Shown here piece by piece: positions 1,267-47,773 of a stretch of DNA of 47,773 nt. Source of the stretch: a virus (Duplodnaviria > Heunggongvirae > Uroviricota > Caudoviricetes). The notes beneath the pieces were generated by a model. The model was not told the origin of the DNA. It saw only the letters and a program-made list of their open reading frames with translations, and did not search any database. The position numbers and the translations under genes are program-made. The DNA is taken from IMG/VR virus record IMGVR_UViG_2667527975_000009, positions 1 to 47,773 of that record; one strand, 5' to 3'. Position 1 is the stretch's first letter, and each line of letters begins with the position of its first letter.

Positions 1267-3441
1267 CTATCTAATCCTGAACATTACAATTGGAGCAGAG
1301 CCAGAAGATAAAGGGCCTGACCAATGGTATCTAATTCTGAAAGAAGACTCACTTGGAGTTCCGATAATTTCTATTGGACTTAAAGTTGCACCTTCTGCAG
1401 AACCAGCAGGTTGTCTAAACCCCAACACAGCAATCTGGTTTGGTGTTGGGGCATACAGAAAATTATGCTCAATATCAACCTCGTTAGATTCGCTACCTGT
1501 TGGGTTTGGCATATTCCACTCAATATAATCGTCAGTTGATTTCCCATTTATTGAGTTTCCAACTGTTGCCATAATCGTCCACGTACACGTCCTGTTAAGG
1601 GCTGCCATTCTATCACCTAAAAACCTATTATAACCATTTGCGCCTGAAGTGATTAATCTTATATTCTCTGATGCACATGTGCCAATGCTGTTAAATCCAG
1701 TGCAATCAGAAGAAAGCCCCTTCGCAGTTATATCTACGCTGTTCGCAAAACAAATTGTTGTTGAATTTACTGCATCGCGAATAAGAGCAGAACCCGAAAA
1801 CAAATTATCACACGAACCTCTTATATTATTACCACCGCCGGATAAGTAACATAAATTTCCTTTTATCCTCTTGGATGTAAAAGTAACATTGTTATTGTCA
1901 CCAGTAACAGAAAGAAGCGAGGCTTTAATAGGGGCATTGTCACTCTGTAACTGACCAATTTGGTTTATTGTAACTACATTGTTGTTGCCTGATATAGCTA
2001 TCTGATACCCATCATCATCAATTGAAGGTGAATATCTTTGTGCTTTTATATTGATGTTAAGTGTCCAGATTGTACCGTTATCCAGAAGCATGTCGCGGAG
2101 AGGAGAAATTGAATCGCCAGTGTAGTTATCTGGCATTCTTCCGCACGCCCTGGCTTCTGCGATGGCAACAACACCATGTGCCCCGTTGGTAAACCAGTAA
2201 CCACCTAAACTATTATCAACACACACATGCCTCGCATTGAATCGGTTAACACCCAGCGTCTTAAATCCATAGCCATAATACGCAGCATATACATGGATGT
2301 AATTTATATCGACATGTCCTGTATAAGGAGACTGATTATCAAGAACAATTCCATGACATGGTTCTCCGGGATAAAGAAGGCTTTGTTGGCTTGTTGCTGT
2401 TAATCTTGCGCTGTAAGGAGGAAGTCCACACAGGCCAAAAACAATATAATCCATGTTAATATCACCTGGCCCCCTGAACACAACCCCCTCTCTCCCTGAA
2501 ATTCTTCCCGTTATCCTCACTTCAGAGGCGTGTTCCTGATTATCATGAAATGATCCATACCCCTCTGAATAGAGAGCATGTTCTGCAACATTATTAATCT
2601 CAACGTCAATGTGGTACATGCTGCCGAATATTTTAATGGCAGTTCCATAGTCATTGTTAACAGTGTCGCAAGTTCTCCATGAGTTTGTATCTCTTTGCAA
2701 GTCAAGATAATTACCATCAATGGTCATATCTTTTATGCTAAATCCATATGGCGCATCAGACAGATTTTCCACAACGCCAAAGCCATGTGTTTTAAATACA
2801 TCTGTATTACTACCTTTTTTAACATACAGAAATGTTGCTCTCTTTCCAGAGCCTTTATGATGAACGCCTGTATAAAGAATGATAGGAGAATCTATTAAAT
2901 AAACACCTGGAGGGTAAAATATTTCCCCGCCACCATTATTAAAAGCAGCTAATGCTGCGGCATTAATGGCATCAGAATCTGATGTCAATCCATCTGCTTT
3001 AGCTCCATAGTATTGAGGTGTTTTCCTGATTGCATCGTAAACCGTTGAAGCGCCGAAACCGATATATTTACTACCATCTGTACCGCCAATAAGTAATTTA
3101 AACTGATCCGGGTCATACTTCAGCACATTCGGAAAATAGAACTGCTGTGTACCATACGCATCATAAACAGCCATAGAATGGCCTTGCACGGTTACGAATT
3201 TGGCAATCTGTCCGTTATATACCGGATATCCAGCAGCGTTAATGATTATTGGTTGCGAAACAGGAACGTGAGAACCGTCTTCATTCTCCACATAAACCTG
3301 AATCTGGTTTTCAGGATTTACTGGGTCAGTGTCAATTTTACCGATATAAATTTTGCCATTAGCTACGGCTTTAAAAGAGCGGGCCATAGTGAAGAGTTGC
3401 GAAGGCATGCTCACTACAACATTGGCTGTAATGTCTGTCAT
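1267..3441 (-). CDS. Tailspike (P22 gp9 / HK620-type head-binding domain with a divergent receptor-binding domain)
   Basis: 724 aa. The first ~115 aa ([46 protein letters not shown]...) match the conserved head-binding domain of P22-like tailspikes; the remainder is unrelated to the P22 or HK620 sequences I recall. The gene is visibly more AT-rich than its neighbours. Confidence 0.9.
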
Positions 3442-4974: not shown

Positions 4975-6972
4975 CTATTCTGACAGCGCATCAGACTTAG
5001 CACCCTGAGTCAGGGCGTTAATGACCTTTTGTGCCTGCTGCATGGCTTTCTCAAACGCTGTTGATCCGCGTGGGGTGTTTGCCATTCGGAGCATTGCATT
5101 CCTGAATGGCTCGCTCTCATAGGCGCGAGTAAGAAGTCCGTAGCTTACTGCTGCACCAGTTGTCGCCGGGTTCATTGCCGTCCCATACCCAATAATGAAC
5201 GGGATGGTTTGCTGCCCTGTGGGTGTTGTTACTGCCGCTTTTGCAGCCTGCTGCGTGGATTGCAGGTAGTTTTTCAATCCTTTCAGATAAGCGGCTTCCT
5301 GACCTTTAAATGTGATGCCAGTCTGGTTTTGCAGGATGTTAAGCTGTCGAAGGAACTGGTCAGGGGATCCGCCAGATTTCTCCATCGCCTTTCCAATGAT
5401 GCCATTGCGCATTTGCGCCCTGCCAACACGACCAACTGAGTTATACAGCGTCTTAATTTCCGATTTGTTCTTGCTGAATAGCATGTTGTTGACAACTTCC
5501 GGCGTCAGGTCGCCTTTCATGAGAACATTCTTCAGCCTGGTATTCTTTAGTTTCGCCGCTTCGTCAGCGTAGACGGCATTGGCCTGCTGATATTTACGGA
5601 GAGTATCGTTGCCAAGATTCTGACCAATGGCACCATTGATATCGTCAGTCATTGCCTTGTAAACGCGCTGAATAGCAGCATCGGAACGGTTTGGTAACAC
5701 TGGTCGCTCACCCTTCACGTCCATTCTGAACTGGCTGCGCAGGTCGCTTAATTGCTTCAAATCCAGATTTACCGGACCATCAGGGCCAGCATTGCGAACA
5801 AGCTCATCACGATATGACTGAAGTTTTGAAATTGTCTCGTTATCAGCTACCTTACCAAGCTTCTGCAGATTAGATATCTCAGTATCAATCTGCTGAATTG
5901 CTCGCGCAGGCTGGATATTGACTCCCGCCATTGCATTCTGAACCTGCTCAAGACGGTTCCCTGCGGCACGACGAATTCCTGATGTTTTCGCTTTAAGGCT
6001 GTCAATAACAACCGCTGGATCATACTCACCGAATTTATCGGCAAATCTCTGCACCAACTGGCTTCTCGCTTCCTGTTGCGTTGCTCTCATTCCGCTTGTG
6101 CCAGCCAGAGGGATATTTTCTGCTGTAGTCTGCGCCATTTTTCCGACGCGGGAAGTGGGTTGTAACAGGTCTGTGGTGTGCAGAGGAACTCCTTCACGCT
6201 CTGCAAATCTGATAGCCTGCTGCGCTTCTGGCGCAATAGCACCACTAACGCCACGATAAGCAGCACCTAATCCACGTCCAGCAGCGTTAATAGCGCCGCC
6301 TGCCAGAACGCCAACACCTAAATCGGTGGCGAGGGCTTCCGCATCATCTTTCGCACTATTTGCAGCAAGTGACCCGACTGCGTTTTCAGCGAGAAGGCGA
6401 GTTGCACCCTGAGCGATTCTACCAGCTAGTGTTGGTGCCTGTGCCGCCGCTCTCTCAACGCCAGCAGGAGTGAGGTAAGGCAATGCTTCAGCAAATACCC
6501 TTCCCTCTGTCGTTTGTGGAGTCAGCGCGCCTTGCTGAAGGCCAAAGTCCTGCTCTAATCCCTGCGTTGTTACTCGTGGCGCTGGTTGATATGTACCATC
6601 GCCAATGCCGAGTTTACCGCCAGCCCAAGCCGCCGCGCTTGTTACAGCATCGGCAACTGATGCGGGTATGTTTGCCACGTTCACGCCAGCCTGCACCAGT
6701 CCGCGACCAGTCTCTTTTACTGCTTCGCCAAGATCAGACATAAATCCACTTTGCTGTGGTTGTTGCTGTGCTACTGGTTGCTGTGTCTCCACTTGCTGCG
6801 CAGATGGCAATGGATAGGCAGCATAGAAAGCTTGCTTGGCCTGCTCTGCATTTTCTCCGGCTTGCGGGGCAACGACTTCATTGAAGTATTGCTCCTGAGC
6901 CTGCGCTTTTTGTTCTGGTGCTAACGCCTGATACTGTGGAGAGGCGATAACATCTTTCCATGCTTTAGCCAT
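4975..6972 (-). CDS. Ejection (internal virion) protein, P22 gp16-like
   Basis: 665 aa, last gene in the gp7-gp20-gp16 order; Ala/Gly/Gln-rich composition. Confidence 0.75.
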   Translation of the reverse strand: MAKAWKDVIASPQYQALAPEQKAQAQEQYFNEVVAPQAGENAEQAKQAFYAAYPLPSAQQVETQQPVAQQQPQQSGFMSDLGEAVKETGRGLVQAGVNVANIPASVADAVTSAAAWAGGKLGIGDGTYQPAPRVTTQGLEQDFGLQQGALTPQTTEGRVFAEALPYLTPAGVERAAAQAPTLAGRIAQGATRLLAENAVGSLAANSAKDDAEALATDLGVGVLAGGAINAAGRGLGAAYRGVSGAIAPEAQQAIRFAEREGVPLHTTDLLQPTSRVGKMAQTTAENIPLAGTSGMRATQQEARSQLVQRFADKFGEYDPAVVIDSLKAKTSGIRRAAGNRLEQVQNAMAGVNIQPARAIQQIDTEISNLQKLGKVADNETISKLQSYRDELVRNAGPDGPVNLDLKQLSDLRSQFRMDVKGERPVLPNRSDAAIQRVYKAMTDDINGAIGQNLGNDTLRKYQQANAVYADEAAKLKNTRLKNVLMKGDLTPEVVNNMLFSKNKSEIKTLYNSVGRVGRAQMRNGIIGKAMEKSGGSPDQFLRQLNILQNQTGITFKGQEAAYLKGLKNYLQSTQQAAKAAVTTPTGQQTIPFIIGYGTAMNPATTGAAVSYGLLTRAYESEPFRNAMLRMANTPRGSTAFEKAMQQAQKVINALTQGAKSDALSE

Positions 6973-35337: not shown

Positions 35338-35501
35338 GAGGACTTGCATACAATCCCGGCATTCTTCCGGCAGAAATGATTATTCGCCAACGCGTAAAGC
35401 CAATGCCATCGAGAGAGGAATTGCTTAAGAGAAATTCTTTTCCATCAGTGAATCAAAACAAATATCTGAATGCGATGTGGCGCAAAGGAGGCAAGCAGTG
35501 A
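35334..35501 (+). CDS. Small hypothetical protein
   Basis: 55-aa ORF ([24 protein letters not shown]...), coupled at both ends. Confidence 0.35.
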
Positions 35502-35797
35502 GTGTATATCTCATTGATAAACGTCGACGTGGGCAACAAATACCACCTGTAGGAATTCCGAATCACACATGGTTTTGCGTACTTGATATCGATGGTATGG
35601 ATGCGTTGGTTGACACTCGTCATTACTGCGATACCGCAACAGCTACTCCGGCGAAAGCAAAGAAAATGGCTGCTCTGATAGAAAACTGGACTCCACCTGA
35701 TGGTTGGTGCAATGGGAATGATCGAGATTGGCATGAAAAAATGAAGGGCTATATCTGCGATTTCTTACGTAAATGCAACGGATTCAGGGTGATGTGA
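35498..35797 (+). CDS. Hypothetical Cys-rich protein
   Basis: GTG start with AAAGGAGG 6 nt upstream ([14 protein letters not shown]...). Confidence 0.45.
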
Positions 35798-37642: not shown

Positions 37643-38818
37643 ATGCTGCTATCTGACATCCAAATAAAAAGAGCAAAACCGAAGGACAAACCCTATACGC
37701 TTAACGATGGTATGGGGCTATCACTCCTGATCGACACAGCGGGCAGTAAAGGCTGGCGTTTTCGCTATCGCTTTGCAGGTAAGCCTAAGATGATTTCCTT
37801 TGGCGTATATGGCGATGTGTCGTTGGCACAGGCACGTACCAAACGTGATGAAGCGCGTTCGATGTTAGCCAACGGGATAAACCCAAGTGAAGCCAGAAAA
37901 GCAGATAAGATTGCTTTGCAGTTCGCGCATGAGAACAGCTTTGAGTCTGTGGCCAGAGAATGGCACTCATCGAAAAAAGCCACCTGGTCAGAGGGTTATG
38001 CAAAAGAGGTTCTCAATTGTATGGAAAAGGATATTTTTCCTTTTATCGGCCAGCGCCCAATTGAGCAGATTGAACCATTAGAACTGCTAACCGTCCTGCA
38101 AAAAATAGAGAAAAGAGGTGCGCTAGAGCAAACCAGTAAGATCCGCCGCCGCTGTGGTGAAGTGCTTCGTTATGCTGTTGCCACTGGTAGAGCAAAGTAT
38201 AATTTTGCACCCGATTTAGCTATCGCACTCAACAAACCTAAAACCCAACACTTCCCGTTCCTGACTGAAAGCGAGTTGCCCGAGTTCGTTAATGCTCTGG
38301 ATAACTATCAGGGCAGTTTAGTTACCAAATACGCCACGCAGCTGTTGATGCTAACAGGCGTGCGAACAATTGAACTACGTGCAGCGGAATGGGCTGAGTT
38401 TGATTTAGATAATGCCTTATGGGAGATCCCCAAAGAACGGATGAAGAAACGCCGCCCCCATCTGGTTCCGTTATCAACTCAGGCGATCAATATCCTGAAA
38501 AAGCTGCAAGAAATAACAGGGAATTACAGCCTCGTTTTCCCTGGCCGGAATGACGTCAGTAAACCAATGAGCGAAGCCAGCATCAACAAAGTGATAAAAC
38601 TACTGGGTTATCACGGTCGGTTAACGGGTCACGGTTTCAGGCATACCATGAGCACCATCTTGCATGAGCATGGGTTTGAAAGTGCCTGGATTGAAATGCA
38701 GCTTGCGCATGTTGATAAGAACTCTATTCGAGGTACTTACAATCATGCGCAATATATTAAAGATCGACAAGTAATGATGGAATGGTACGCTAGCTTATTA
38801 AATACGACCTGCTATTAA
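37643..38818 (+). CDS. int: Tyrosine integrase, P4 type (second integrase)
   Basis: Start taken at the internal Met (MLLSDIQIKRAKPKDKPYTLNDGMGL...); homologous to but clearly distinct from the integrase at 1..1158. Confidence 0.9.
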   Translation: MLLSDIQIKRAKPKDKPYTLNDGMGLSLLIDTAGSKGWRFRYRFAGKPKMISFGVYGDVSLAQARTKRDEARSMLANGINPSEARKADKIALQFAHENSFESVAREWHSSKKATWSEGYAKEVLNCMEKDIFPFIGQRPIEQIEPLELLTVLQKIEKRGALEQTSKIRRRCGEVLRYAVATGRAKYNFAPDLAIALNKPKTQHFPFLTESELPEFVNALDNYQGSLVTKYATQLLMLTGVRTIELRAAEWAEFDLDNALWEIPKERMKKRRPHLVPLSTQAINILKKLQEITGNYSLVFPGRNDVSKPMSEASINKVIKLLGYHGRLTGHGFRHTMSTILHEHGFESAWIEMQLAHVDKNSIRGTYNHAQYIKDRQVMMEWYASLLNTTCY

Positions 38819-39748
38819 ATCCAGCATGAAACAAATATGGTGAGTAATTTGATACTGTTTGTTTTTTGGCAACCCAGGGAAATGCCTTACAGTTGGTTGA
38901 CTATTGTAATAATAATAGTTAAGACCAATGTTGCTGCCAAACTGGGTTGGATGTTGGGGAACAAGATTTGTAATTTGATCTGAAACATCTAAAAATTTTG
39001 CAGTAACATTTGAACTTCCTCGTTGCGTGTTGCTTGATACAAAATGACGAATCCAAACTGTATTCGCTTGTAAATTCTTGAACACCAAATGTGCGGCAAC
39101 AGCAGAAGGTTGACCACCTCCAAGATCTAGTACCTGGCCAGTAATTGTATAATCGCCAAATCCTAAGTAATTTTGTCCCACGAATTGATGTGCGTGCGTG
39201 AAAAGTTCCGGCCCATTATAATCAGCATTTTTTGCTAACTTTCTAAAGTTATCGCTAATAATAATTAACTTCGACAAAGGAAGAAGAGCGCACTGATTAG
39301 GAAGCATTTTATTATTTAAAACAACATGATAACTAATCAATTGATTTGTCGCCAACAACTGAATATCAGAGTTGGATAATGATGGATTATCATATAGAAG
39401 TGCAACTCGTCTATTTAAGTTAGCATTCAACCAATTATTAATATCATTAATCGTTGTATTGGGCTGAATAAGATATCCAGAGATGATATTATTTTTATTT
39501 GTTAATACACTTGATAAATTTTGATTTAAAGTTAAGACGTTATTGTGTGAAGAAAAATCTTCCTGATAAGGATTAAGGATAACAATTATGTCAGAATTCC
39601 AAACATTTAAACATGTTAATAAATTTCTCGTATTGACGTTAATTGGTTCTAAAATTGGTAGCAGACCATTTAGGCTAACTCCCTTCGCAACGAGGTCCCT
39701 AAGGCATAATAACTCTGTACTTCTCGCATACAAATATGGGCTATACAT
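38798..39748 (-). CDS. Cargo protein B (unknown function; AT-rich accessory gene)
   Basis: 316 aa, Asn/Leu/Ser-rich, low GC; second gene of a two-gene operon, and its 3' end overlaps the 3' end of int by 21 bp. Confidence 0.7.
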   Translation of the reverse strand: MYSPYLYARSTELLCLRDLVAKGVSLNGLLPILEPINVNTRNLLTCLNVWNSDIIVILNPYQEDFSSHNNVLTLNQNLSSVLTNKNNIISGYLIQPNTTINDINNWLNANLNRRVALLYDNPSLSNSDIQLLATNQLISYHVVLNNKMLPNQCALLPLSKLIIISDNFRKLAKNADYNGPELFTHAHQFVGQNYLGFGDYTITGQVLDLGGGQPSAVAAHLVFKNLQANTVWIRHFVSSNTQRGSSNVTAKFLDVSDQITNLVPQHPTQFGSNIGLNYYYYNSQPTVRHFPGLPKNKQYQITHHICFMLDLIAGRI

Positions 39749-39769
39749 AACTTACAACTCCTGAGGATA

Positions 39770-40651
39770 TCAACAAATTTTAATTTTTACATCCATCAAA
39801 TTCATGATGAATTCTTTTTGCTTTCTTGATAATGGTGTTGCATAACCTAAAACACGTAAACATGCTGGAAGAGAATAAATATAATCCAAAAAAACTTTAT
39901 CGTTACATCTTTTTTTCATAGCAGAGATAAAGTATTTATTTGCTATGTTTAATGGCATCTGCATGAATATCTCTTTACAATATTCATAAACCAATCCGTT
40001 AGGCATATTTATTTTAGTTGAAGTGTAATCTTCTATTATAGCTAAGAACTCTTCCTTTCTAAGAACTGAAAACAAGCTGTCACTTTTAATATAATCAATA
40101 TTTGAATCTGCCTCCTTAATGACACTCAATTGATCTTTTTTATTCAAAACCATAACTCCCACTCTGGGGAGATTTAAAGCACAATATTTACTTGCATACT
40201 CTGGATGTGTAACTATATACACTTTATCAAAAACATCCAAATAATCAGGGGCTTGAGTAATCAACCTTTTTGGTGAATCATACTCTGTCTTAATCTCGTA
40301 AGCTGTAGACGTACCATTAAACACCGCAACATCCACTATAGAGTTTTTAATTGGTAACTCTATGGACGACGAACTTGTTTTTGGGCTGTGCTTACCGAAT
40401 ATTATTTTATTGACAAGTGCTGTCTTATAAACATATTCATTTCTATAATTCAGACGCAAAAAATCATATAATGATGTAAATAAATCCCTTAGTGAAATCT
40501 CATGTTCATTATTATCATTGTTTGAAAACAGTGTTTCATAGCAGTAAGAATCAAAACTCCCAAATAAATCCGAAATATCCTTACCTTTTGCTAAGGATGA
40601 AAAAATGGGGCGACGGAAAAATTTAGCATATTCCTTTTTATTATGACTCAT
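39770..40651 (-). CDS. Cargo protein A (unknown function; possible PD-(D/E)xK nuclease-like motif)
   Basis: 293 aa, AT-rich; contains ...SIVDVAVFNGTSTAYEIKTEYD..., which resembles a D...E-x-K nuclease core. Confidence 0.7.
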   Translation of the reverse strand: MSHNKKEYAKFFRRPIFSSLAKGKDISDLFGSFDSYCYETLFSNNDNNEHEISLRDLFTSLYDFLRLNYRNEYVYKTALVNKIIFGKHSPKTSSSSIELPIKNSIVDVAVFNGTSTAYEIKTEYDSPKRLITQAPDYLDVFDKVYIVTHPEYASKYCALNLPRVGVMVLNKKDQLSVIKEADSNIDYIKSDSLFSVLRKEEFLAIIEDYTSTKINMPNGLVYEYCKEIFMQMPLNIANKYFISAMKKRCNDKVFLDYIYSLPACLRVLGYATPLSRKQKEFIMNLMDVKIKIC

Positions 40652-41887: not shown

Positions 41888-44575
41888 TCACTCAGGTTCA
41901 GCGCTTCCCAGTACCTGTGTATTGAACTGGTACACACGTTTAAGCCCTATTTCTGGCAGGCGAATGCTGTTTTGCGTCCGGCCATCTTCACCGGGTTTCA
42001 GCCAGCCCGCGTCCACACACAACCTGGCCACCTTACGCGAGTCAAATCCCTTACAGATCTCCTTCCAGCCTGACGGGAGAACGTAGAACGTCACAACCGG
42101 CTCTGTCACGTTGTCTCCTTTATCGACTTTTCTGAATCCCATCATTGAAACAGGCCGGTTCCTGTCGTCATTCCAGTCAGCAAACCGACTGAACTGATTA
42201 CGCGTCATGAAGTCCCGAACCTGTTCAAGTGCCGCTTTATCTTCCTGATTAGCTGTATGGCCCCGGTCAGCCATCCATGCAGCCAGACAGCTTTGAGCGG
42301 CACGAAAGGCCTCTCCCTCCGGCCATCCTGTGATGCCCGCTTTTGTGGCCAGCTCCCCGGCCATCGCAACCAGAGCAAAACGGGTAACAGCCCGGCCAAC
42401 CTGATTCCCGGCATTTTCCGGCGTCAGCCTTCGGGTATACTCTTTCAATAAGGCTTTCGCCTGACTGGTCAGTTCCGGCAGATCAGCGGTCAGGCAATAC
42501 AGCCAGTCGCGGAATGGTGCACCATGATAATGCGCTACGTGCTGCTCAAGATGCTCAGCCAGGGTTTTCCCGCTACTGAAGCCATGAAGTTCTTCAAACA
42601 CGCCATACTTGCCCGAATCGCTTGGGATCTGGATCATTCTGACCTCAACCCCGGCATACGTACGTTCCCCGGCGCTTGCCGCATGCTCTACCAGTGACAG
42701 TTCCCCGGTAGACAGAAACAACAGATTCCAGCGGTTGGTTTCCCTTACCGAACCATCTGTTCTGGCTCTGGCTTTGCCCTGCCCGTTAGCCAGCATATAA
42801 GCGATATTTCCCGCCTCCCTGCCGTCAACCTCCCGGATTTCATCCAGCATCAGCGTGGCATCATTGCGGCGGCTCGCCGTTCCTTCTAAGGCATTCCCCG
42901 TCGCCCGCCACGTATGCCAGAAATCTGTTCCACCACATACTGATGCAGCCACTTTCATCGTCGTGGTTTTACCGTCTGTGGATTCCCCTTTGAGGTGATA
43001 ACCTCCACCGCCGATACCAACCAGTTTCAGAAGGGGGGCAGCAAATGCCAGACTCACCGCAAAGGCAAGACGGGCATTCTTTATGCAATAACGGCCTATA
43101 TTTTCACGCCAGCCCTCTGATGTGCCGCTGACACGAAAATCACGCCCCTGCACACTCGATGTTTGTAAGATGACTGACTGGGCTTCGCGCCCTATCACTT
43201 CATCCTGGAGAACGTAAACCCCGCCGTGCCAGCCAGTTTTATTCACACAGGTTACTTTTCTGTCCGGTTTACACAGCGAGATATATTCCATCAGGAATGC
43301 TCTGGCCATGCCGTTAATGTTGATGTAAGAAAGCCCGTTAACCAGCAGAACGCGGCGCAGTTCTTCCCCGCTACCGCCCAGCATCTCCATCGGCATTGCC
43401 CATTTACGGCTGTTTCCGTTGGTATCTTCCCATTCCAGCAAACGCCCGTAATTACTTCCATCAGCATCACTGGTGATTGCCGTCACCCGCAACGGACTGC
43501 AAATTTTGATATTACGTATCTCTGTATCACCATCAGACTTATTAACCAGCTTGTCGTACCACAAATATTCTTTTGTCAGCCGGAACCCTTCTGGTAAACG
43601 GGTCTGCCCTTTGCCATGCAGCGTCATTTCTTCACGAAAGGCATCTCTCGCCCGTTCTTTCCCCACTTCCTGCCGATAATCATCCCAGTCAGCCTTATGG
43701 CGTACCGGAGGGAGCGTTACCCAGCCATCCACCGCTTTGGCGGCTTTCTCTGCCTGAATACGCCCGGTGTTTTCTTTGCCGTCAGCCAGATCATTATCTC
43801 CGGCCAGAATGATCCGGGTTTCCGGCCAGCGTTTTCGGATCTGCTCCGTCACCTTCAGTAAATTGGTGGCAGCGACAGCCGCCACGATCCATCCTTCAGT
43901 CAGCAGACTGACGGTAAGCGCCGTGGCAAAACCCTCAGTGATAATCACCTGTTCAGGTGTTTCAGCGGGTATATCGGTCAGGGCAATGAATGCGCCAGAC
44001 AGCTGGCTACCGGGCAGCAGACTTTTATCCCCGTCAGGATTGATAAGCTGGCCACCAGTAATATTCCCGGAAATATCCGTCAAAGGCAGCAGTAATGAAC
44101 CGGTGGAAAATGTTATTCCGGCCAGATTCAAAGGCTGTGACAGCAAGGGAAGTGAATACCCGTGTAAGCTCTTATTTGTCAGATAGACCGGCTCACCATT
44201 GCAGGACTGCTGTCTGAGTCTGGTATATCGCTCCGCGCCCGCTTCTTTTCCTGCGGCCTTTTTCCTGGCTGGCAATGCGGGCTTCTCCTGTATTTCTGGT
44301 AATGCAAGCGCCTCAGATACCATCCCGGCGACTTCTTTTATCTTTCTTCCTGTCACCAGACGAACCAGATCAAGACCATCGCCATGACCGCACTGATTAC
44401 AAAACCACGTCCCTCGCCCCGCTTTATCGTCCAGTCGAAAACGATCTTTTCCACCACAGGCAGGGCAAGCCCCATGATGTCCTGCGGACGGTACTTTAAT
44501 ACCTAATGCTGACAGGATATAAGGCCAGCGCCCAATTGCAGCTCCGGAAATCGTGGATACAGACGGTGTTTTCAC
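41888..44575 (-). CDS. Primase-helicase (P4 alpha-like)
   Basis: 895 aa with an N-terminal Zn-ribbon (CPACGGKDRF...CNQCGHGDG), a TOPRIM-like region (IITEGFATAL...AGDNDLADG) and Walker A motif GESTDGKTT. Confidence 0.9.
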   Translation of the reverse strand: MKTPSVSTISGAAIGRWPYILSALGIKVPSAGHHGACPACGGKDRFRLDDKAGRGTWFCNQCGHGDGLDLVRLVTGRKIKEVAGMVSEALALPEIQEKPALPARKKAAGKEAGAERYTRLRQQSCNGEPVYLTNKSLHGYSLPLLSQPLNLAGITFSTGSLLLPLTDISGNITGGQLINPDGDKSLLPGSQLSGAFIALTDIPAETPEQVIITEGFATALTVSLLTEGWIVAAVAATNLLKVTEQIRKRWPETRIILAGDNDLADGKENTGRIQAEKAAKAVDGWVTLPPVRHKADWDDYRQEVGKERARDAFREEMTLHGKGQTRLPEGFRLTKEYLWYDKLVNKSDGDTEIRNIKICSPLRVTAITSDADGSNYGRLLEWEDTNGNSRKWAMPMEMLGGSGEELRRVLLVNGLSYININGMARAFLMEYISLCKPDRKVTCVNKTGWHGGVYVLQDEVIGREAQSVILQTSSVQGRDFRVSGTSEGWRENIGRYCIKNARLAFAVSLAFAAPLLKLVGIGGGGYHLKGESTDGKTTTMKVAASVCGGTDFWHTWRATGNALEGTASRRNDATLMLDEIREVDGREAGNIAYMLANGQGKARARTDGSVRETNRWNLLFLSTGELSLVEHAASAGERTYAGVEVRMIQIPSDSGKYGVFEELHGFSSGKTLAEHLEQHVAHYHGAPFRDWLYCLTADLPELTSQAKALLKEYTRRLTPENAGNQVGRAVTRFALVAMAGELATKAGITGWPEGEAFRAAQSCLAAWMADRGHTANQEDKAALEQVRDFMTRNQFSRFADWNDDRNRPVSMMGFRKVDKGDNVTEPVVTFYVLPSGWKEICKGFDSRKVARLCVDAGWLKPGEDGRTQNSIRLPEIGLKRVYQFNTQVLGSAEPE

Positions 44576-44982
44576 AGCAGCACCTCCTGACCTTCCGGCT
44601 TCACAAATTCAAAACCTTCGGGTAGTTCGCCATCAGGTGCTCCGAAAATAATATCCCGGTAAACCTCACGCATCTCTGTGACACCAAAAACTGACAGGCG
44701 AATATTTTCTGACATAAAGCCTGGTTTAAGCATTTTTTCCAGTTTCTCTGCGGCCAGTATGCAACCAGCATCAGCCCCAAACTCATTCACCCACGGCATT
44801 TCAATATGGTAAATAATATTACTCACCACTTTTTCGTGGGAGAGTTCTATTCGTTCGCCATCTTCAATATAAACAGGTTCATTATGAACACGCACCATTA
44901 AGGAAATGAATGCATCAGCAATGTAGTAGCGTAAGACTGCTGTTCGTAAAGCATGCGCCTTTAAATTTTGATTATTATTCAT
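44572..44982 (-). CDS. Hypothetical protein (primase operon)
   Basis: 136-aa ORF overlapping the primase start by 4 nt. Confidence 0.55.
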   Translation of the reverse strand: MNNNQNLKAHALRTAVLRYYIADAFISLMVRVHNEPVYIEDGERIELSHEKVVSNIIYHIEMPWVNEFGADAGCILAAEKLEKMLKPGFMSENIRLSVFGVTEMREVYRDIIFGAPDGELPEGFEFVKPEGQEVLL

Positions 44983-45211
44983 CGCGCATCACTCCCTTAA
45001 TTGTGCTGGTTTCCTTAACAACGCCATCCAGTTGTTCGGCAATACAGGCCACTAAAGCCGCAGCGCCTTCCGCTGAAACAGTTCTCGCTCCATTCACTGT
45101 GGGCACGGACAAGACCTCTGCAAGAAACTCACTGGCCAGTGCCGCCCGTAACAGACGACTCTCCCCCTGTTCACTCAATATGCAGCCTTGCTTAAAATTC
45201 ATGGATTTCAT
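44975..45211 (-). CDS. Hypothetical protein (primase operon)
   Basis: 78-aa ORF, coupled. Confidence 0.5.
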   Translation of the reverse strand: MKSMNFKQGCILSEQGESRLLRAALASEFLAEVLSVPTVNGARTVSAEGAAALVACIAEQLDGVVKETSTIKGVMRDE

Positions 45212-45411
45212 GCAACCACCTCCCCGGCTCTTTTCACAGGGATACGGGCAGCAAAGCTCAGGATAAATTCAGTGGCAAGTTTAAGGCGTGCAGCATGCTC
45301 GCATTCTGCGATTACACGCACAGGGCGTGGACGGGCATCACGGTCTGTACGGCGGACAGCCAGAAAGACAAAGGTAAATTCAGGGTGAGATAAAGCAGGG
45401 ACTGTAGCCAT
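45208..45411 (-). CDS. Hypothetical protein (first gene of the primase operon)
   Basis: About 67 aa from MATVPALSHPEF with GAAGGAGG 8 nt upstream; the longer 196-aa ORF upstream is low-complexity. Confidence 0.45.
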   Translation of the reverse strand: MATVPALSHPEFTFVFLAVRRTDRDARPRPVRVIAECEHAARLKLATEFILSFAARIPVKRAGEVVA

Positions 45412-45630
45412 AATGGCAACCTCCTTCAGATAGCGGGTAACGCTACCACCGGAGTTCCTACGCTCATGGGTGGTAGCCCAGACGGGGGTAGGAATACCGG
45501 CTCTGAAGGATACCGGCCAGCCCGAAAGCTGCCCCGCCTGGACTACCATAATTCTGATGATGTGGCGTAAAAAATAAAAAAATACAATCAGCCACCACAC
45601 CATAAATTTTAGGTGAGTCAAAGCTGCGAC

Positions 45631-45655
45631 ACAAAAAAACACGCCTAGCGCGTGT
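45631..45655 (-). terminator. Intrinsic terminator or attenuator in the leader upstream of the primase operon
   Basis: On the minus strand, ACACGC-GCTAG-GCGTGT followed by UUUUUU. Confidence 0.6.
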
Positions 45656-45848
45656 AGTATCGCCTTCAGATAACACGGGTTCCTACGCCCGGCTGCCGAT
45701 TTTGCGGCAACCTTTAAACTATATCCCGCGCATTCCTGGTGAGGCAAGAAATTTATAACCGAAAACTGATCATTGCCTGGATTAATTAACGCTGGCATGC
45801 TTAAGCCTCTGCTTAAAAATAGTTCTTCATTTTTCCTGATGCTGTAAA

Positions 45849-45875
45849 CGAGACCCGCCTCTGAGCGGGTCTTTC
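45849..45875 (-). terminator. Hairpin after the 334-aa gene
   Basis: GACCCGC-TCAGA-GCGGGTC followed by a weakly T-rich tail. Confidence 0.4.
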
Positions 45876-45885
45876 TGTCGCTAAG

Positions 45886-46890
45886 TCAATCCGCAAACGT
45901 CAGGGTGCACTCATCAACAGCCGCGTACAGTTCAGGTTCACCGAGTGCATAACCTTCATTGCGCAGGTAGGAATGCACGTATTCACTGCTTTCATCATCA
46001 AACTCAGCACGAAACCAGCGTGTTATCGCCTGAGTGTAAATATGCAGATTATCCAGCGTCGTTACTGCCAGACGCTTACCCGGCATAAACGGGGGAATAA
46101 ACGCAAAGCGGCCAGCAACAGAACTTGTAGCCATCTGTGCCGCATTCACATCAGACGGGCGGTCTGCGGCATTAAATAACTTCAGGCGTTGATGTGCTGC
46201 CAGCTCTGCCCCAACCAGTACAACCAGACGAGGATCTTCACGAAACTGCTCAGCAATAAGCTCTGTAATCAGATGGTTGGCCAGAGCATCAATATTTTTC
46301 CAGGTGCCAGTCTCTCCCAGAGTGACAGGCTCAGAGATGATTTGCTTTCCGTTCCCGTAGGCTTTCGCCAGTGCATGCCAGCCAATATTGACATCCTCGC
46401 CTTTTTTATTGATTTCCGGGTTTGTAGTATTTGCAATCGACACACCGTTGAAACCGACCCGCAGCATGTCCAGCGCATATGCCTGGGCAAAAAAGCTCTC
46501 AACCGTTTTCTCAAACTCATCCGGCACGCCGGTATGGTAAATATGAGACATATCGGAATAGCTGATCCGGGCGCAGGTATCCGTCTCTGTCAGAAAGAAC
46601 TCCGTACCATTGATTGCCATTTTTTTGTGGAAACGGCCACCATCCACACGTCCGGTATACAGTTCACTGGCACCAATATTGACGGCATTACCTGACACGG
46701 CGTTAACATCACGTAGGGTAATATTTTTAATAAGCCACCCGGATTCCAGAATTGAGGTACGCAGTATATTTTCAGTAGGTTCGCTTAATGCAAAGCGTCT
46801 GTTTGATTCTTCCTGATAGTTAGTGCCAGTGACGAATTTATTATGATAACGACGTGCTGCGTCCGGCCTTTCAGTTTTGAAGGCATACAT
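45886..46890 (-). CDS. Putative P2-family major-capsid-like protein (uncertain)
   Basis: 334 aa; the segments GFNGV..., EDPRLVVLVGAELAA and TLDNLHIYT resemble P2 GpN as I recall it. Not verified. Confidence 0.35.
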   Translation of the reverse strand: MYAFKTERPDAARRYHNKFVTGTNYQEESNRRFALSEPTENILRTSILESGWLIKNITLRDVNAVSGNAVNIGASELYTGRVDGGRFHKKMAINGTEFFLTETDTCARISYSDMSHIYHTGVPDEFEKTVESFFAQAYALDMLRVGFNGVSIANTTNPEINKKGEDVNIGWHALAKAYGNGKQIISEPVTLGETGTWKNIDALANHLITELIAEQFREDPRLVVLVGAELAAHQRLKLFNAADRPSDVNAAQMATSSVAGRFAFIPPFMPGKRLAVTTLDNLHIYTQAITRWFRAEFDDESSEYVHSYLRNEGYALGEPELYAAVDECTLTFAD

Positions 46891-46912
46891 AGTTTTTCAC
46901 CTTTTTAAGTAT

Positions 46913-47773
46913 TTAAGAAAAGATTTTATTTTTGTACTCAGTAACCAGATTGTATTTCATTACATGCTCAACATAATCCCGGTCACTTACGACTGAACGT
47001 AATACATAATTATCTGCTCGATAGTACTCCCTGTAAGCCATAGCTCTTGCCATTCCACCGTTATTTAATACATAACGATCAGTTGGAACGCTACAACGAC
47101 TAATAATTTCACTCACGGAATCAGATAAAGACTTGAGTGCATCAGTAATAAATTTAATATCACGGACAACGTCACTGTCATTAAATACAGAAATAAAATC
47201 AGCAGGGATCTGGCCGGATTGAGGAAATATATTCAGTAAACGCTTATCGATTCCCTTCCCAATGTAGTTTCCTTCATCGGCCAGTACTCCCGGCAAAAGC
47301 TTGATCGTGCTCAATCGACTATGTTGTTCATTCAACCGGGAAACAGCCAGATGGTAATACCGTTCAGCATCCGCTCGTTCAGCATGCCCCATTTTATTCG
47401 TTTTGGCTTCAGCAATGCTACTGACGCCGTTTTTTGAGAATGTGCTTTTCCATGCAACTTCCGCATTTGTCACTTCACGCTGCCGGAAAGATAACTCTTC
47501 CTCTTCCTGACGACACAACTGGGCATAACGGCTCAGGAGCAGGTTGATCTCATTCGCCACAGTTTCCGTATCAGGTACTGTTAACCCCGTAAGTGAATAC
47601 AGCTTTTCACCTTTAGCTCGCAGCTTATTCAGTGAATATATTTCAATAATACGCACAATACAGGCCGTGTCGCTATGAGTCTCTTTAAATGATCTTACTT
47701 TGTAACTATCTAACACCGACACATGTTCGTTCTTAATTGATGCCAATTTCTTCTTAAAAACATTGTCAACCAT
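46913..47773 (-). CDS. Hypothetical protein
   Basis: 286-aa ORF whose ATG sits at the window edge; coiled-coil-like central region. Confidence 0.5.
   Translation of the reverse strand: MVDNVFKKKLASIKNEHVSVLDSYKVRSFKETHSDTACIVRIIEIYSLNKLRAKGEKLYSLTGLTVPDTETVANEINLLLSRYAQLCRQEEEELSFRQREVTNAEVAWKSTFSKNGVSSIAEAKTNKMGHAERADAERYYHLAVSRLNEQHSRLSTIKLLPGVLADEGNYIGKGIDKRLLNIFPQSGQIPADFISVFNDSDVVRDIKFITDALKSLSDSVSEIISRCSVPTDRYVLNNGGMARAMAYREYYRADNYVLRSVVSDRDYVEHVMKYNLVTEYKNKIFS

What the first reader, a model, noticed from the sequence alone, without database searches (positions are those of the whole stretch)
45412..45885. Leader region with intrinsic terminator and direct repeats upstream of the primase operon: possible RNA-based immunity control
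A roughly 440-bp stretch without credible ORFs lies upstream of the small-ORF/primase operon. It contains a clean minus-strand terminator (hairpin plus U6 at 45631-45655) and two direct repeats (CCTTCAGATA...GTTCCTACGC at about 45422-45462 and 45661-45688). The layout is reminiscent of P4 immunity, in which a small RNA causes premature termination of the replication operon transcript.
Basis: partly seen in the sequence, partly recalled or inferred. Interest (0 to 1): 0.5.

Follow-up and report, generated by a model that had tools for sequence, protein, structure and literature searches.

The report
P4-type RNA immunity region (IsrK/C4)
This stretch is the RNA-based "immunity" switch of a P4-like phage satellite: a small antisense RNA (C4/CI) lies between two copies of its own target sequence and is inferred to keep the satellite's replication genes off; the mechanism is well known, so this is an ordinary instance of it.

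Summary
The terminator and the two direct repeats are real and lie within 1-2 bases of the stated positions. Between the repeats lies an 88-nt C4/CI antisense RNA (45553-45466, minus strand; Rfam RF01695, 81 bits). Its two exposed boxes are complementary to both repeat copies. The upstream repeat plus the terminator is an IsrK/seqA-type leader (45711-45634; RF01394, 69 bits). The downstream repeat covers the ribosome-binding site of the first gene of the primase operon, a 67-aa Kil/Icd-like protein.

The whole layout is colinear with the phage P4 immunity region (promoter, seqA, terminator t1, CI, seqC, kil), at 71% BLAST identity to P4. Window and P4 differ mainly in the pairing boxes, and those changes are compensatory at all three sites. 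Across 123 related loci, 98-99.8% of box-target pairs are kept, with many two-sided changes.

The claim of "no credible ORFs" is wrong. A conserved 196-codon reading frame (45798-45208), the homologue of P4 eta, runs through the RNA genes.

Verdict: the P4-immunity idea is essentially correct. This is an already known system with an immunity specificity different from P4's. Interest is low. One by-product is more interesting: the same module coincides with the unexplained "Hft" region upstream of traA in IncI conjugative plasmids.

The parts
45851..45872 (-). GC-rich hairpin (AGACCCGCU-CAGA-GGCGGGUCU) just after the stop of the P2-family capsid gene. It has a weak U-tract, so it is a possible partial terminator of the upstream operon.
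   Evidence: -17.5 kcal/mol, z = -3.5. Not called by the terminator scan because the U-run is short.
45208..45798 (-). eta-like long ORF of 196 codons (SD GAGG at 45809-45806, ATG at 45798). It reads through the promoter, the IsrK/seqA leader, t1, C4/CI and seqC, in phase with kil. It could only be translated from transcripts that start upstream.
   Evidence: The Pfam Phage_ASH match covers aa 26-141. P4 eta logic is summarised in PMC10111431.
45718..45747 (-). PLE-like sigma-70 promoter inside the eta frame: -35 TTGCCT, 18-nt spacer, -10 TATAGT. The predicted transcription start is about 45711.
   Evidence: The TA...T positions of the -10 are invariant in 123 loci and CTTGC of the -35 is conserved. 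The isrK model starts at 45711.
45634..45711 (-). IsrK-like / seqA leader RNA: hairpin 1 (45711-45692), hairpin 2 (45691-45676) showing the b-box GUAGGAA (45686-45680) in its loop, single-stranded a-box UCUGAAGG (45670-45663), then terminator t1.
   Evidence: Rfam RF01394, 68.9 bits against a gathering score of 50. c4-a1b1 RF03163 scores 43.8 bits, just below its 46.7 threshold. Hairpin 1 has two-sided changes at 6 of 7 pairs.
45632..45655 (-). Intrinsic terminator t1 (stem 45655-45639, U7 at 45638-45632).
   Evidence: Conserved in 120 of 123 loci (helix 4).
45466..45553 (-). C4 / CI antisense RNA. It has a 17-bp closing stem (45548-45532 with 45487-45471), hairpin I (45531-45518), hairpin II (45517-45496) with the a' box UCCUUCAGA (45510-45502) in its 12-nt loop, and the single-stranded b' box UUCCUAC (45494-45488).
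   Evidence: Rfam RF01695, 81.1 bits against a gathering score of 45. The MFE fold equals the Rfam structure: -47.8 kcal/mol, z = -5.3. 99.9% of cells paired in 123 loci.
45442..45477 (-). Alternative hairpin. The last 7 nt of the CI closing stem plus 2 nt (GCUACCACC, 45477-45469) pair with GGUGGUAGC (45450-45442). This places the seqC b-box in the loop and excludes the base of the CI stem.
   Evidence: pair I9; 98.5% paired, 7 of 9 pairs with two-sided changes.: -19.3 kcal/mol.
45422..45461 (-). seqC target: b-box GUAGGAA (45461-45455) and a-box UCUGAAGGA (45430-45422). The a-box overlaps the Shine-Dalgarno sequence AAGGAGG (45426-45420) of kil.
45208..45411 (-). kil / Icd-like ORF, 67 aa (ATG at 45411-45409). 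It is the first translated gene downstream of the internal promoter, and its stop overlaps the start of the next ORF.
   Evidence: NCBIfam NF033153 phage_ICD_like, 68 bits, confined to this part. ATG conserved in 121 of 123 loci. Homologues are 63-67 aa; P4's is 65 aa.
41888..45211 (-). Regulated operon with overlapping starts and stops: orf78 (45211-44975), orf136 (44982-44572) and a primase-helicase of 895 aa (44575-41888).
   Evidence: Pfam Zn_Ribbon_Prim + Toprim_3 + DUF927. The N-terminal 317 aa are 38% identical to P4 alpha.

Best explanation
This is the immunity (lysogeny-maintenance) region of a P4-related satellite island, and it is orthologous to the P4 PLE-seqA-t1-cI-seqC-kil/eta region.

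Proposed sequence of events:
1. A constitutive promoter (45747-45718) starts a leader transcript at about 45711.
2. Many transcripts stop at the intrinsic terminator t1, giving a roughly 80-nt IsrK-like RNA that carries target copy 1 (seqA).
3. Read-through transcripts contain the C4/CI RNA (45553-45466). This is cut out, by RNase P at the 5' end and by 3' trimming as in P1 and P4, to give a stable antisense RNA.
4. The two exposed boxes of CI (a' UCCUUCAGA and b' UUCCUAC) pair with the b/a boxes of seqA in nascent leaders. In P4 this raises termination at t1 and so autoregulates CI.
5. The same boxes pair with seqC, whose a-box covers the ribosome-binding site of kil. Untranslated kil RNA is then terminated prematurely (Rho-dependent in P4), so the translationally coupled orf78-orf136-primase operon stays off.
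6. Transcripts from an upstream promoter would escape this control, because ribosomes translating the long eta frame run through seqA, t1, CI and seqC.

The box sequences set the immunity specificity, and here they differ from P4's.

Shown here: the sequence elements, their folds, homology to P4, and strong covariation of both intermolecular pairings. Inferred from P4, P1 and Gifsy-1 work: RNA processing, termination, Rho dependence and the biological role.
For: - Rfam hits above the gathering scores for C4 (81.1 bits) and isrK (68.9 bits), in the order and on the strand expected. P4 itself gives the same hits in the same order.
- 71% BLAST identity to the P4 cI region. In the colinear alignment the differences concentrate in the a/b boxes and are compensatory at seqA, the CI loops and seqC.
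- In 131 unique relatives, the locus's own b' box has a perfect 7/7 complement upstream in 128 and downstream in 129. With boxes swapped between loci the figures are 8 of 655 and 0 of 655.
- On the 123-sequence alignment, seqA:CI helices are 99.0-99.8% paired and 13 of 15 pairs show two-sided changes. CI:seqC helices are 98.0-99.7% paired and 12 of 16 pairs show two-sided changes. Slid controls give 36-51% paired.
- The C4 fold is confirmed.
- Predicted duplexes of the window's own CI with its targets are -29.6 and -31.3 kcal/mol. Crosses between window and P4 partners give -12.7 to -20.1 kcal/mol.
- The seqC a-box overlaps the SD of a conserved Icd-like ORF.
- The eta-like frame is conserved as open.
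- Literature: IsrK and C4 are the same as seqA and CI RNA of P4-like prophages (PMC3632133). The P4 mechanism is summarised in PMC4825925 and PMC10111431.
Against: - There are no expression, processing or termination data for this element. Every functional step is carried over from P4, P1 and Gifsy-1.
- The island is not a canonical P4. It has no sid, psu or epsilon homologues, and no P4/P2 cos 19-mer within 3 mismatches in the 24.8-kb reference locus. Its helicase domain differs from P4 alpha's. It carries a P2-family capsid gene directly upstream. The biological meaning of 'immunity' could therefore differ.
- In Gifsy-1 the short IsrK RNA activates downstream translation (PMC4825925), so the net sign of regulation by the short transcript is not settled.
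- How CI binding at seqA promotes termination at t1 could not be derived from the sequence.
- eta here is separated from the upstream gene by 87 nt and a hairpin, unlike the translational coupling to alpA described for P4.
Confidence: 0.85

Rival explanations
1. The short transcript ending at t1 (IsrK-like, 45711 to about 45632) is the main regulator and acts positively. As in Gifsy-1, it would bind the read-through transcript or the C4-like RNA in trans, titrate or remodel it, and switch on translation of the downstream ORFs. This would make the region an induction switch rather than a repressor.
For: The isrK family hit is above threshold. In Salmonella Gifsy-1, short IsrK arises by partial termination. 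It activates translation of the downstream 'orf45'-anrP message about 140-fold, through pairing with sequence that is processed into an RNA of about 80 nt, STnc1160 (PMC4825925). seqA is complementary to the CI loops here, so a decoy effect is physically plausible.
Against: This does not exclude the repressor model; it is more likely an added layer. In P4-like prophages of S. Typhi the IsrK-like element behaves as required under TraDIS, which the authors take to suggest a role in lysogenic maintenance (PMC3632133). The downstream copy seqC masks the kil SD when paired with CI, which is a repressive geometry. The context here (kil plus replication genes) is that of P4, not of the Gifsy-1 antirepressor operon.
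Confidence: 0.3
2. The region is simply protein-coding: a 196-aa 'Ash/Icd-like' protein, as annotated by PGAP and matched by Pfam Phage_ASH. On this reading the repeats and hairpins are incidental.
For: RefSeq annotates the whole 45208-45798 ORF as an Icd-like protein. Pfam PF10554 matches aa 26-141 at 112 bits. The frame is kept open in most relatives.
Against: The ORF is real but does not replace the RNA elements. Two Rfam covariance models score far above threshold. RNA helices and the intermolecular pairings show many two-sided compensatory changes, which protein coding does not predict. A conserved promoter and an intrinsic terminator sit inside the frame. The curated Icd-like domain is confined to the last 48-60 residues. 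The internal ATG with a strong SD is conserved in 121 of 123 loci. In P4, the immunity factor is described as the CI RNA, processed from an untranslated transcript (PMC4825925; PMC10111431).
Confidence: 0.05
3. The direct repeats are protein-binding sites (operators or iterons) for a satellite or helper DNA-binding protein, and the terminator merely insulates the upstream capsid operon from the primase operon.
For: Repeated 10-mers near a promoter and upstream of a replication operon are typical of operators or iterons. The island encodes an HTH protein and an Ogr/Delta-like zinc-finger protein.
Against: Both repeats lie downstream of the promoter, in transcribed sequence. They are exactly complementary to the loops of the RNA between them and co-vary with those loops across 123 loci. 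The terminator lies downstream of, not upstream of, the conserved internal promoter. A separate hairpin follows the capsid gene.
Confidence: 0.03

Closest known systems
Phage-plasmid P4 immunity region (PLE - seqA - t1 - cI/CI RNA - seqC - kil/eta)
   Same: Same order, strand and spacing of every element. 71% BLAST identity and a colinear alignment. Same Rfam hits. A kil-sized first ORF (67 aa against 65 aa) and an eta-like overlapping frame with 49% identity. The operon ends in a primase whose N-terminal domain is 38% identical to P4 alpha.
   Different: The a/b specificity boxes differ: a' UCCUUCAGA against UCCUGUGAA, and b' UUCCUAC against UUCUCAC. Heteroimmunity is therefore predicted. The spacer between t1 and CI is shorter. 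The genes after kil are unrelated to epsilon and orf151. eta starts after a capsid gene and a hairpin rather than being coupled to the alpA homologue. The island lacks sid, psu and the cos 19-mer.
P1/P7 immI region: C4 antisense RNA with a1/b1 and a2/b2 targets upstream of icd-ant (Rfam RF01695, RF03163)
   Same: A processed antisense RNA is encoded in the same transcript as its two target copies. The second copy covers the ribosome-binding site of an Icd-type gene. Specificity is set by two short boxes. The window matches the C4 model at 81 bits and the a1b1 model at 43.8 bits.
   Different: The downstream cargo here is a replication (primase) operon, not the antirepressor ant. The c4-a1b1 hit is just below its gathering score (46.7).
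Salmonella Gifsy-1 IsrK - orf45 (STnc1160) - anrP locus (Rfam RF01394)
   Same: A short sRNA is made by partial termination at an intrinsic terminator. It is followed by a processed RNA of about 80 nt that is complementary to it, and then by a small ORF (PMC4825925). The window matches isrK at 68.9 bits.
   Different: In Gifsy-1 the reported effect of short IsrK is activation of an antirepressor, leading to growth arrest. The context is a lambdoid prophage, not a satellite replication operon.
IncI1/I-gamma plasmid 'Hft' region upstream of traA (pESBL-EA11, R64)
   Same: Same module: promoter, IsrK-like leader with b and a boxes, C4 RNA (77.5 bits), and a second b/a copy over the SD of the first gene. 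The b' box UUCCUAC is identical.
   Different: It controls a conjugation regulator (traA), not a primase operon. The a' box differs (CGAUGAC). The isrK-like part scores below threshold (31.6 bits). The published Hft papers read here do not mention a C4-type RNA.

Membership tests
C4 antisense RNA / P4 CI RNA (Rfam RF01695) | Covariance-model score at or above the curated gathering score (45 bits), full length | tested here: met
   81.1 bits, model positions 1-87 of 87, window 45553-45466 minus strand
C4 antisense RNA / P4 CI RNA (Rfam RF01695) | Long closing stem enclosing two hairpins, supported by covariation | tested here: met
   The MFE fold equals the Rfam consensus, z = -5.3. 27 pairs are 99.9% paired in 123 loci and 8 pairs show two-sided changes. 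Slid controls give 29-51%.
C4 antisense RNA / P4 CI RNA (Rfam RF01695) | Two exposed boxes (a', b') complementary to two target copies, one upstream and one downstream in the same transcript | tested here: met
   (I3, I6, I8); own boxes match 128 and 129 of 131, swapped boxes 8 and 0 of 655; 98-99.8% paired with abundant compensatory changes.
C4 antisense RNA / P4 CI RNA (Rfam RF01695) | The downstream target overlaps the ribosome-binding site of an icd/kil-type gene | tested here: met
   The a-box (45430-45422) overlaps the SD AAGGAGG (45426-45420), with the ATG at 45411. The ORF matches NF033153 phage_ICD_like.
C4 antisense RNA / P4 CI RNA (Rfam RF01695) | Mature RNA released from the leader by RNase P and 3' trimming; acts as immunity repressor | not testable with these tools
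   Needs Northern blot or RNA-seq, an rnpA(ts) strain and genetics.
isrK / P4 seqA leader (Rfam RF01394) | Covariance-model score at or above the gathering score (50 bits) | tested here: met
   68.9 bits, model positions 1-77 of 77, window 45711-45634
isrK / P4 seqA leader (Rfam RF01394) | Own promoter immediately upstream and an intrinsic terminator at the 3' end | tested here: met
   -35 TTGCCT / -10 TATAGT at 45747-45718 and a terminator stem plus U7 at 45655-45632. Both are conserved in relatives.
isrK / P4 seqA leader (Rfam RF01394) | Hfq binding and accumulation of the short RNA | not testable with these tools
   Needs co-immunoprecipitation or Northern blot.
c4-a1b1 (Rfam RF03163) | Covariance-model score at or above the gathering score (46.7 bits) | tested here: not met
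   43.8 bits at 45724-45672, E = 1e-9. P4 itself scores 44.1 bits, also just below. The same sequence is covered by the isrK model.
P4 eta/kil nested genes | A long ORF that starts upstream of the internal promoter, is in phase with the short first ORF, and is conserved as open | tested here: met
   The 196-codon ORF runs from 45798 to 45208. It is 49% identical to the P4 frame. The in-phase frame has 0.82 stops per 390 nt against 6.5 and 4.3 in 122 loci.
P4 eta/kil nested genes | Translation of eta from upstream-promoter transcripts prevents termination | not testable with these tools
   Described for P4 (PMC10111431). It needs nonsense mutants and reporters here.
P4-like satellite (core set: int, psu, delta, sid, alpA, epsilon, alpha; PMC8628076) | Integrase, Delta/Ogr-like activator, AlpA-like HTH and alpha-type primase are present | tested here: met
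   Pfam hits for the integrase and for Ogr_Delta. An HTH gene sits at the far end of the island in L001. The primase N-terminal domain is 38% identical to P4 alpha.
P4-like satellite (core set: int, psu, delta, sid, alpha, epsilon, alpA; PMC8628076) | sid, psu, epsilon and a P2/P4-type cos site are present | tested here: not met
   No such genes appear in the island annotation. orf78 and orf136 are unrelated to epsilon and orf151. There is no match to the cos 19-mer with up to 3 mismatches in L001. The island instead carries a P2-family major capsid gene.

The most novel reading that the evidence does not exclude
The a'/b' boxes may form a modular two-part address code. In the loci sampled there are about 24 a' alleles and 4-5 b' alleles in 36 combinations, and 8 a' alleles occur with more than one b' allele. 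The code is shared by satellites, N15-like phage-plasmids and IncI conjugative plasmids.

On this reading, co-resident elements are either orthogonal or cross-regulate. The three genomes with two copies all carry types that differ in both boxes. The window's b' box is identical to that of the C4 RNA in the IncI 'Hft' region, which controls traA. A satellite could therefore partly influence plasmid conjugation, or the plasmid could influence the satellite.

The conserved alternative hairpin (45477-45442) might be the switch that decides between CI maturation and termination.
Probability: 0.12. Interest if true: 0.55.

Novelty: already known. Interest (0 to 1): 0.15.

Why it matters
For this window it matters mainly as annotation. 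Two RNA genes, a promoter and a regulated terminator are unannotated in RefSeq, where the whole stretch is labelled as one 'Icd-like' protein. Hundreds of E. coli genomes carry the identical sequence (at least 421 at 99% identity or more).

It also shows that this atypical satellite island has kept the complete P4 immunity logic with a different specificity. The island has its own P2-type capsid gene and lacks sid and psu. Immunity specificity bears on which satellites can coexist or exclude one another.

The broader value lies in two by-products. The first is a quantitative picture of how loop and target boxes co-evolve as swappable modules. The second is the observation that the IncI plasmid 'Hft' superspreader region coincides with the same RNA module.

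Tried and rejected
1. My first genome-wide pattern scan had a miscounted gap (7 N instead of 6) and found nothing. I corrected and relaxed the pattern.

2. I first treated the 196-aa ORF, and the Pfam Phage_ASH match to it, as a spurious translation of RNA genes. I withdrew that after finding the frame conserved as open in relatives and the published eta/kil logic. My first frame test was off by one base, because the ATG is at 45411, not 45412. I repeated it.

3. I looked for an antiterminator pairing between CGUGU (just 5' of the a-box) and the left arm of t1. The two do not co-vary in the alignment, so I dropped the idea.

4. tRNA search: there is none in the window. In this genome type a P22-like/lambdoid prophage sits between the argW tRNA site and the island, unlike strain SA186.

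5. The P4 cos 19-mer is not found in the island.

6. orf78 and orf136 compared with P4 epsilon and orf151 show no similarity.

7. The primary P4 papers (Sabbattini 1995; Forti 1999; Briani 2000) are not held in the library. Their content is taken from summaries in PMC4825925, PMC3632133 and PMC10111431. For t1/t4 and CI-dependent termination at t1 I rely on my own recollection of Briani et al. 2000.

8. The folding energy of the IsrK-like leader alone is not significant (z = -0.57). Support for it comes from the covariance model and covariation instead.

Full report
**1. What is in the sequence**

All features lie on the minus strand and are listed in the direction of transcription.
- The P2-family capsid gene ends at 45886 and is followed by a GC-rich hairpin (45872-45851).
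- An ORF of 196 codons starts at 45798, with GAGG 7 nt upstream.
- Inside that ORF is a sigma-70-type promoter: -35 TTGCCT, 18-nt spacer, -10 TATAGT (45747-45718).
- From about 45711 comes a leader with two hairpins. The second shows GUAGGAA (the 'b-box') in its loop. A single-stranded UCUGAAGG (the 'a-box') follows.
- After an 80-nt A/U-rich spacer lies an 88-nt highly structured RNA (45553-45466; MFE -47.8 kcal/mol, z = -5.3).
- Immediately downstream the b-box (45461-45455) and the a-box (45430-45422) occur again. This time the a-box overlaps the Shine-Dalgarno AAGGAGG of a 67-codon ORF starting at 45411.
- That ORF is followed, with overlapping stop and start codons, by orf78, orf136 and an 895-aa primase-helicase.

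**2. Checking the observation**

The terminator and both direct repeats are exactly there. Two repeated 10-mers in 474 nt are uncommon by chance: 22 of 1000 dinucleotide shuffles.

The statement that the stretch has no credible ORF does not hold (see section 5).

**3. Identity**

A scan of the whole window against Rfam at curated thresholds gives exactly two hits, both here:
- C4 antisense RNA (RF01695), 81.1 bits against a gathering score of 45, at 45553-45466.
- isrK (RF01394), 68.9 bits against a gathering score of 50, at 45711-45634.

With a relaxed threshold, the 'a1,b1 targets of C4' model (RF03163) also matches the leader at 43.8 bits, just under its cut-off.

A BLAST search against phages finds the cI immunity region of satellite phage P4 at 71% identity. 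P4 itself gives the same three Rfam hits in the same order.

The pairwise alignment is colinear from the promoter to the first ORF. [quoted passage not shown]

**4. Evidence for the pairing mechanism**

*Window against P4.* The differences cluster in the boxes and are compensatory at all three sites.
- Targets: GUAGGAA / UCUGAAGG in the window, GUGAGAA / UUCACAGG in P4.
- CI loops: UUCCUAC / CCUUCAGA in the window, UUCUCAC / CCUGUGAA in P4.

*Wider sample.* A degenerate pattern that fixes only the invariant CI stem bases retrieved 49 loci from species-representative genomes and at least 119 from viral contigs. They are almost all Enterobacterales. They carry 36 different a'/b' combinations.

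*Own boxes against swapped boxes.* In 131 unique loci, the locus's own b' box has a perfect complement upstream in 128 and downstream in 129. With boxes swapped between loci the figures are 8 of 655 and 0 of 655.

*Pair counts on a 123-sequence alignment (A2):*

| Pairing | Cells paired | Pairs with two-sided changes |
|---|---|---|
| seqA:CI helices | 99.8% and 99.0% | 13 of 15 |
| CI:seqC helices | 99.7% and 98.0% | 12 of 16 |
| Slid controls for these two | 36-51% | - |
| CI's own fold | 99.9% | 8 of 27 |

*Predicted duplexes.* The window's CI loop region with its own seqA and seqC gives -29.6 and -31.3 kcal/mol. Crosses between window and P4 partners give -12.7 to -20.1 kcal/mol. The element should therefore be heteroimmune to P4.

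**5. The overlapping reading frame**

RefSeq annotates 45208-45798 as one 196-aa 'Icd-like' protein, and Pfam Phage_ASH matches aa 26-141. The curated Icd-like domain, however, lies only in the last part, within the 67-aa ORF. The internal ATG is conserved in 121 of 123 loci.

I first took the long ORF for an artefact. The in-phase frame upstream of the ATG has only 0.82 stops per 390 nt in 122 relatives, against 6.5 and 4.3 in the other frames. Long ORFs of 170-219 codons are the rule.

This matches P4's nested genes. kil is the short ORF, 65 aa in P4 by my own parse. eta is the long frame that begins upstream of the internal promoter. As summarised in PMC10111431, eta is translated only from an upstream late promoter, and its translation prevents termination. 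The window's long ORF is 49% identical to the P4 eta frame. The region therefore encodes RNA genes embedded in a conditionally translated ORF.

**6. How it most likely works**

The steps are given under Best explanation. Two groups should be kept apart.

Shown here:
- The elements themselves and their conservation.
- The RNA folds.
- Both intermolecular pairings, with covariation.
- The overlap of seqC with the kil ribosome-binding site.
- The tightly overlapping operon downstream.

Inferred from P4, P1 and Gifsy-1:
- Maturation of CI by RNase P and 3' trimming.
- CI-enhanced termination at t1 (autoregulation). This rests on my recollection of Briani et al. 2000, which is cited but was not readable here.
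- Block of kil translation with premature (Rho-dependent) termination.
- Escape of upstream-promoter transcripts through eta translation.
- A possible decoy or activating role of the short IsrK-like RNA.

**7. Context**

The island is about 11 kb. In strain SA186 it lies at tRNA-Arg between yfdC and dsdC. Its genes, in order, are: integrase, sce7725/sce7726 genes, Ogr/Delta-like, primase, orf136, orf78, kil/eta, P2-family major capsid, a 286-aa unknown, and an HTH protein. P4's own cII is annotated as sce7726 family.

In the window's genome type a P22-like/lambdoid prophage lies in tandem beside the island, and no tRNA is in the window.

The 801-nt region is at least 99% identical in 421 E. 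coli records, and related sequences occur in 1675 of 5426 complete genomes.

The island is P4-related but atypical. It has no sid, psu or epsilon, no P4 cos 19-mer, and a different helicase domain.

**8. Extra observations**

(a) A 9-bp alternative helix joins the 3' strand of the CI closing stem to a segment between the seqC boxes (45477-45469 with 45450-45442). It is 98.5% paired, with two-sided changes at 7 of 9 pairs. The same 3'-strand changes are only tolerated as G·U pairs in the CI stem. It places the seqC b-box in a hairpin loop, as hairpin 2 does for seqA. It may correspond to P4's atypical terminator t4, but that link is speculative.

(b) About 1400 conjugative plasmids match the C4 part at about 83% identity. 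The two I opened are typed IncI-gamma/K1. In pSPA440915 and pESBL-EA11, a promoter, an IsrK-like leader, C4 (77.5 bits) and a second b/a copy over the traA ribosome-binding site lie between repZ and traA.

The published 270-bp 'Hft' region of pESBL-EA11 (35394-35663) spans from just upstream of the seqC a-box to the promoter -10, that is, this module. Transposon insertions or point mutations there give roughly 20-fold higher transfer and roughly 50-fold higher traA expression. The mechanism was left open, and no C4-type RNA is mentioned.

**9. Verdict**

The system is already known and is recognised by curated models. This copy adds only a different specificity allele in an atypical satellite. 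Interest is low (0.15).

Noticed in passing
L175 (NC_018659.1 pESBL-EA11) 482-773, i.e. record about 35381-35672; L172 3480-3790: IncI-type conjugative plasmids carry a complete IsrK-like / C4 (77.5 bits) / second-target module between repZ and traA. The second a-box lies over the traA Shine-Dalgarno sequence, and the b' box is identical to the window's. The module coincides with the published 270-bp 'Hft' region (35394-35663). Insertions or point mutations there make 'superspreader' plasmids. The Hft papers read here do not mention a C4-type RNA.
   Followed up: partly
window 45442-45477 (minus strand): A conserved alternative hairpin pairs the 3' strand of the CI closing stem with GGUGGUAGC between the seqC boxes. 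It is 98.5% paired in 123 loci, with two-sided changes at 7 of 9 pairs. It is mutually exclusive with the base of the CI stem and shows the b-box in its loop. It could be a processing or termination switch, perhaps P4's t4.
   Followed up: partly
window 45208-45798; Pfam PF10554: The Pfam 'Phage_ASH' domain (aa 26-141 of the long ORF) is the translation of the promoter, IsrK/seqA, C4 and seqC segment in the eta frame. Its sequence conservation is therefore largely imposed by the RNA genes. RefSeq names the whole ORF 'Icd-like' although that domain covers only the last 48 residues or so.
   Followed up: yes
L003-L169 (loci): The specificity boxes behave as swappable modules. There are about 24 a' alleles and 4-5 b' alleles in 36 combinations, and 8 a' alleles are found with more than one b' allele. 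In the three genomes that contributed two loci (Citrobacter youngae, Enterobacter intestinihominis, Mangrovibacter yixingensis), the two copies differ in both boxes.
   Followed up: partly
window 45886-47773 (and L001 12737-14869): The satellite island carries its own P2-family major capsid gene (334 aa; TIGR01551 at 204.6 bits, just under the equivalog cut-off) and a 286-aa protein with no family match. It has no sid or psu, and no P4/P2 cos 19-mer was found. It is therefore an atypical P4-related satellite whose capsid strategy may differ from P4's.
   Followed up: partly
window 38798-40651: An sce7725-family / sce7726-family gene pair lies next to the integrase. P4's own cII is annotated as sce7726 family, and the window's sce7726-family protein matches the PADLOC model 'cll'. 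This looks like the satellite's defence-hotspot cargo.
   Followed up: partly
window 1-37500: The rest of the window is a P22-like/lambdoid prophage (portal, scaffold, lysis, nin region, cII, N, Rad52-type recombinase, torI). It lies in tandem with the satellite. In strain SA186 the same island sits directly next to tRNA-Arg without it. The window contains no tRNA gene.
   Followed up: partly
L111 (IMGVR_UViG_2660238469_000005) 3153-3188 and 5770-5805: One 11.6-kb viral contig holds two C4 cores of the same specificity type, 2.6 kb apart. This could be a tandem or duplicated immunity region.
   Followed up: no
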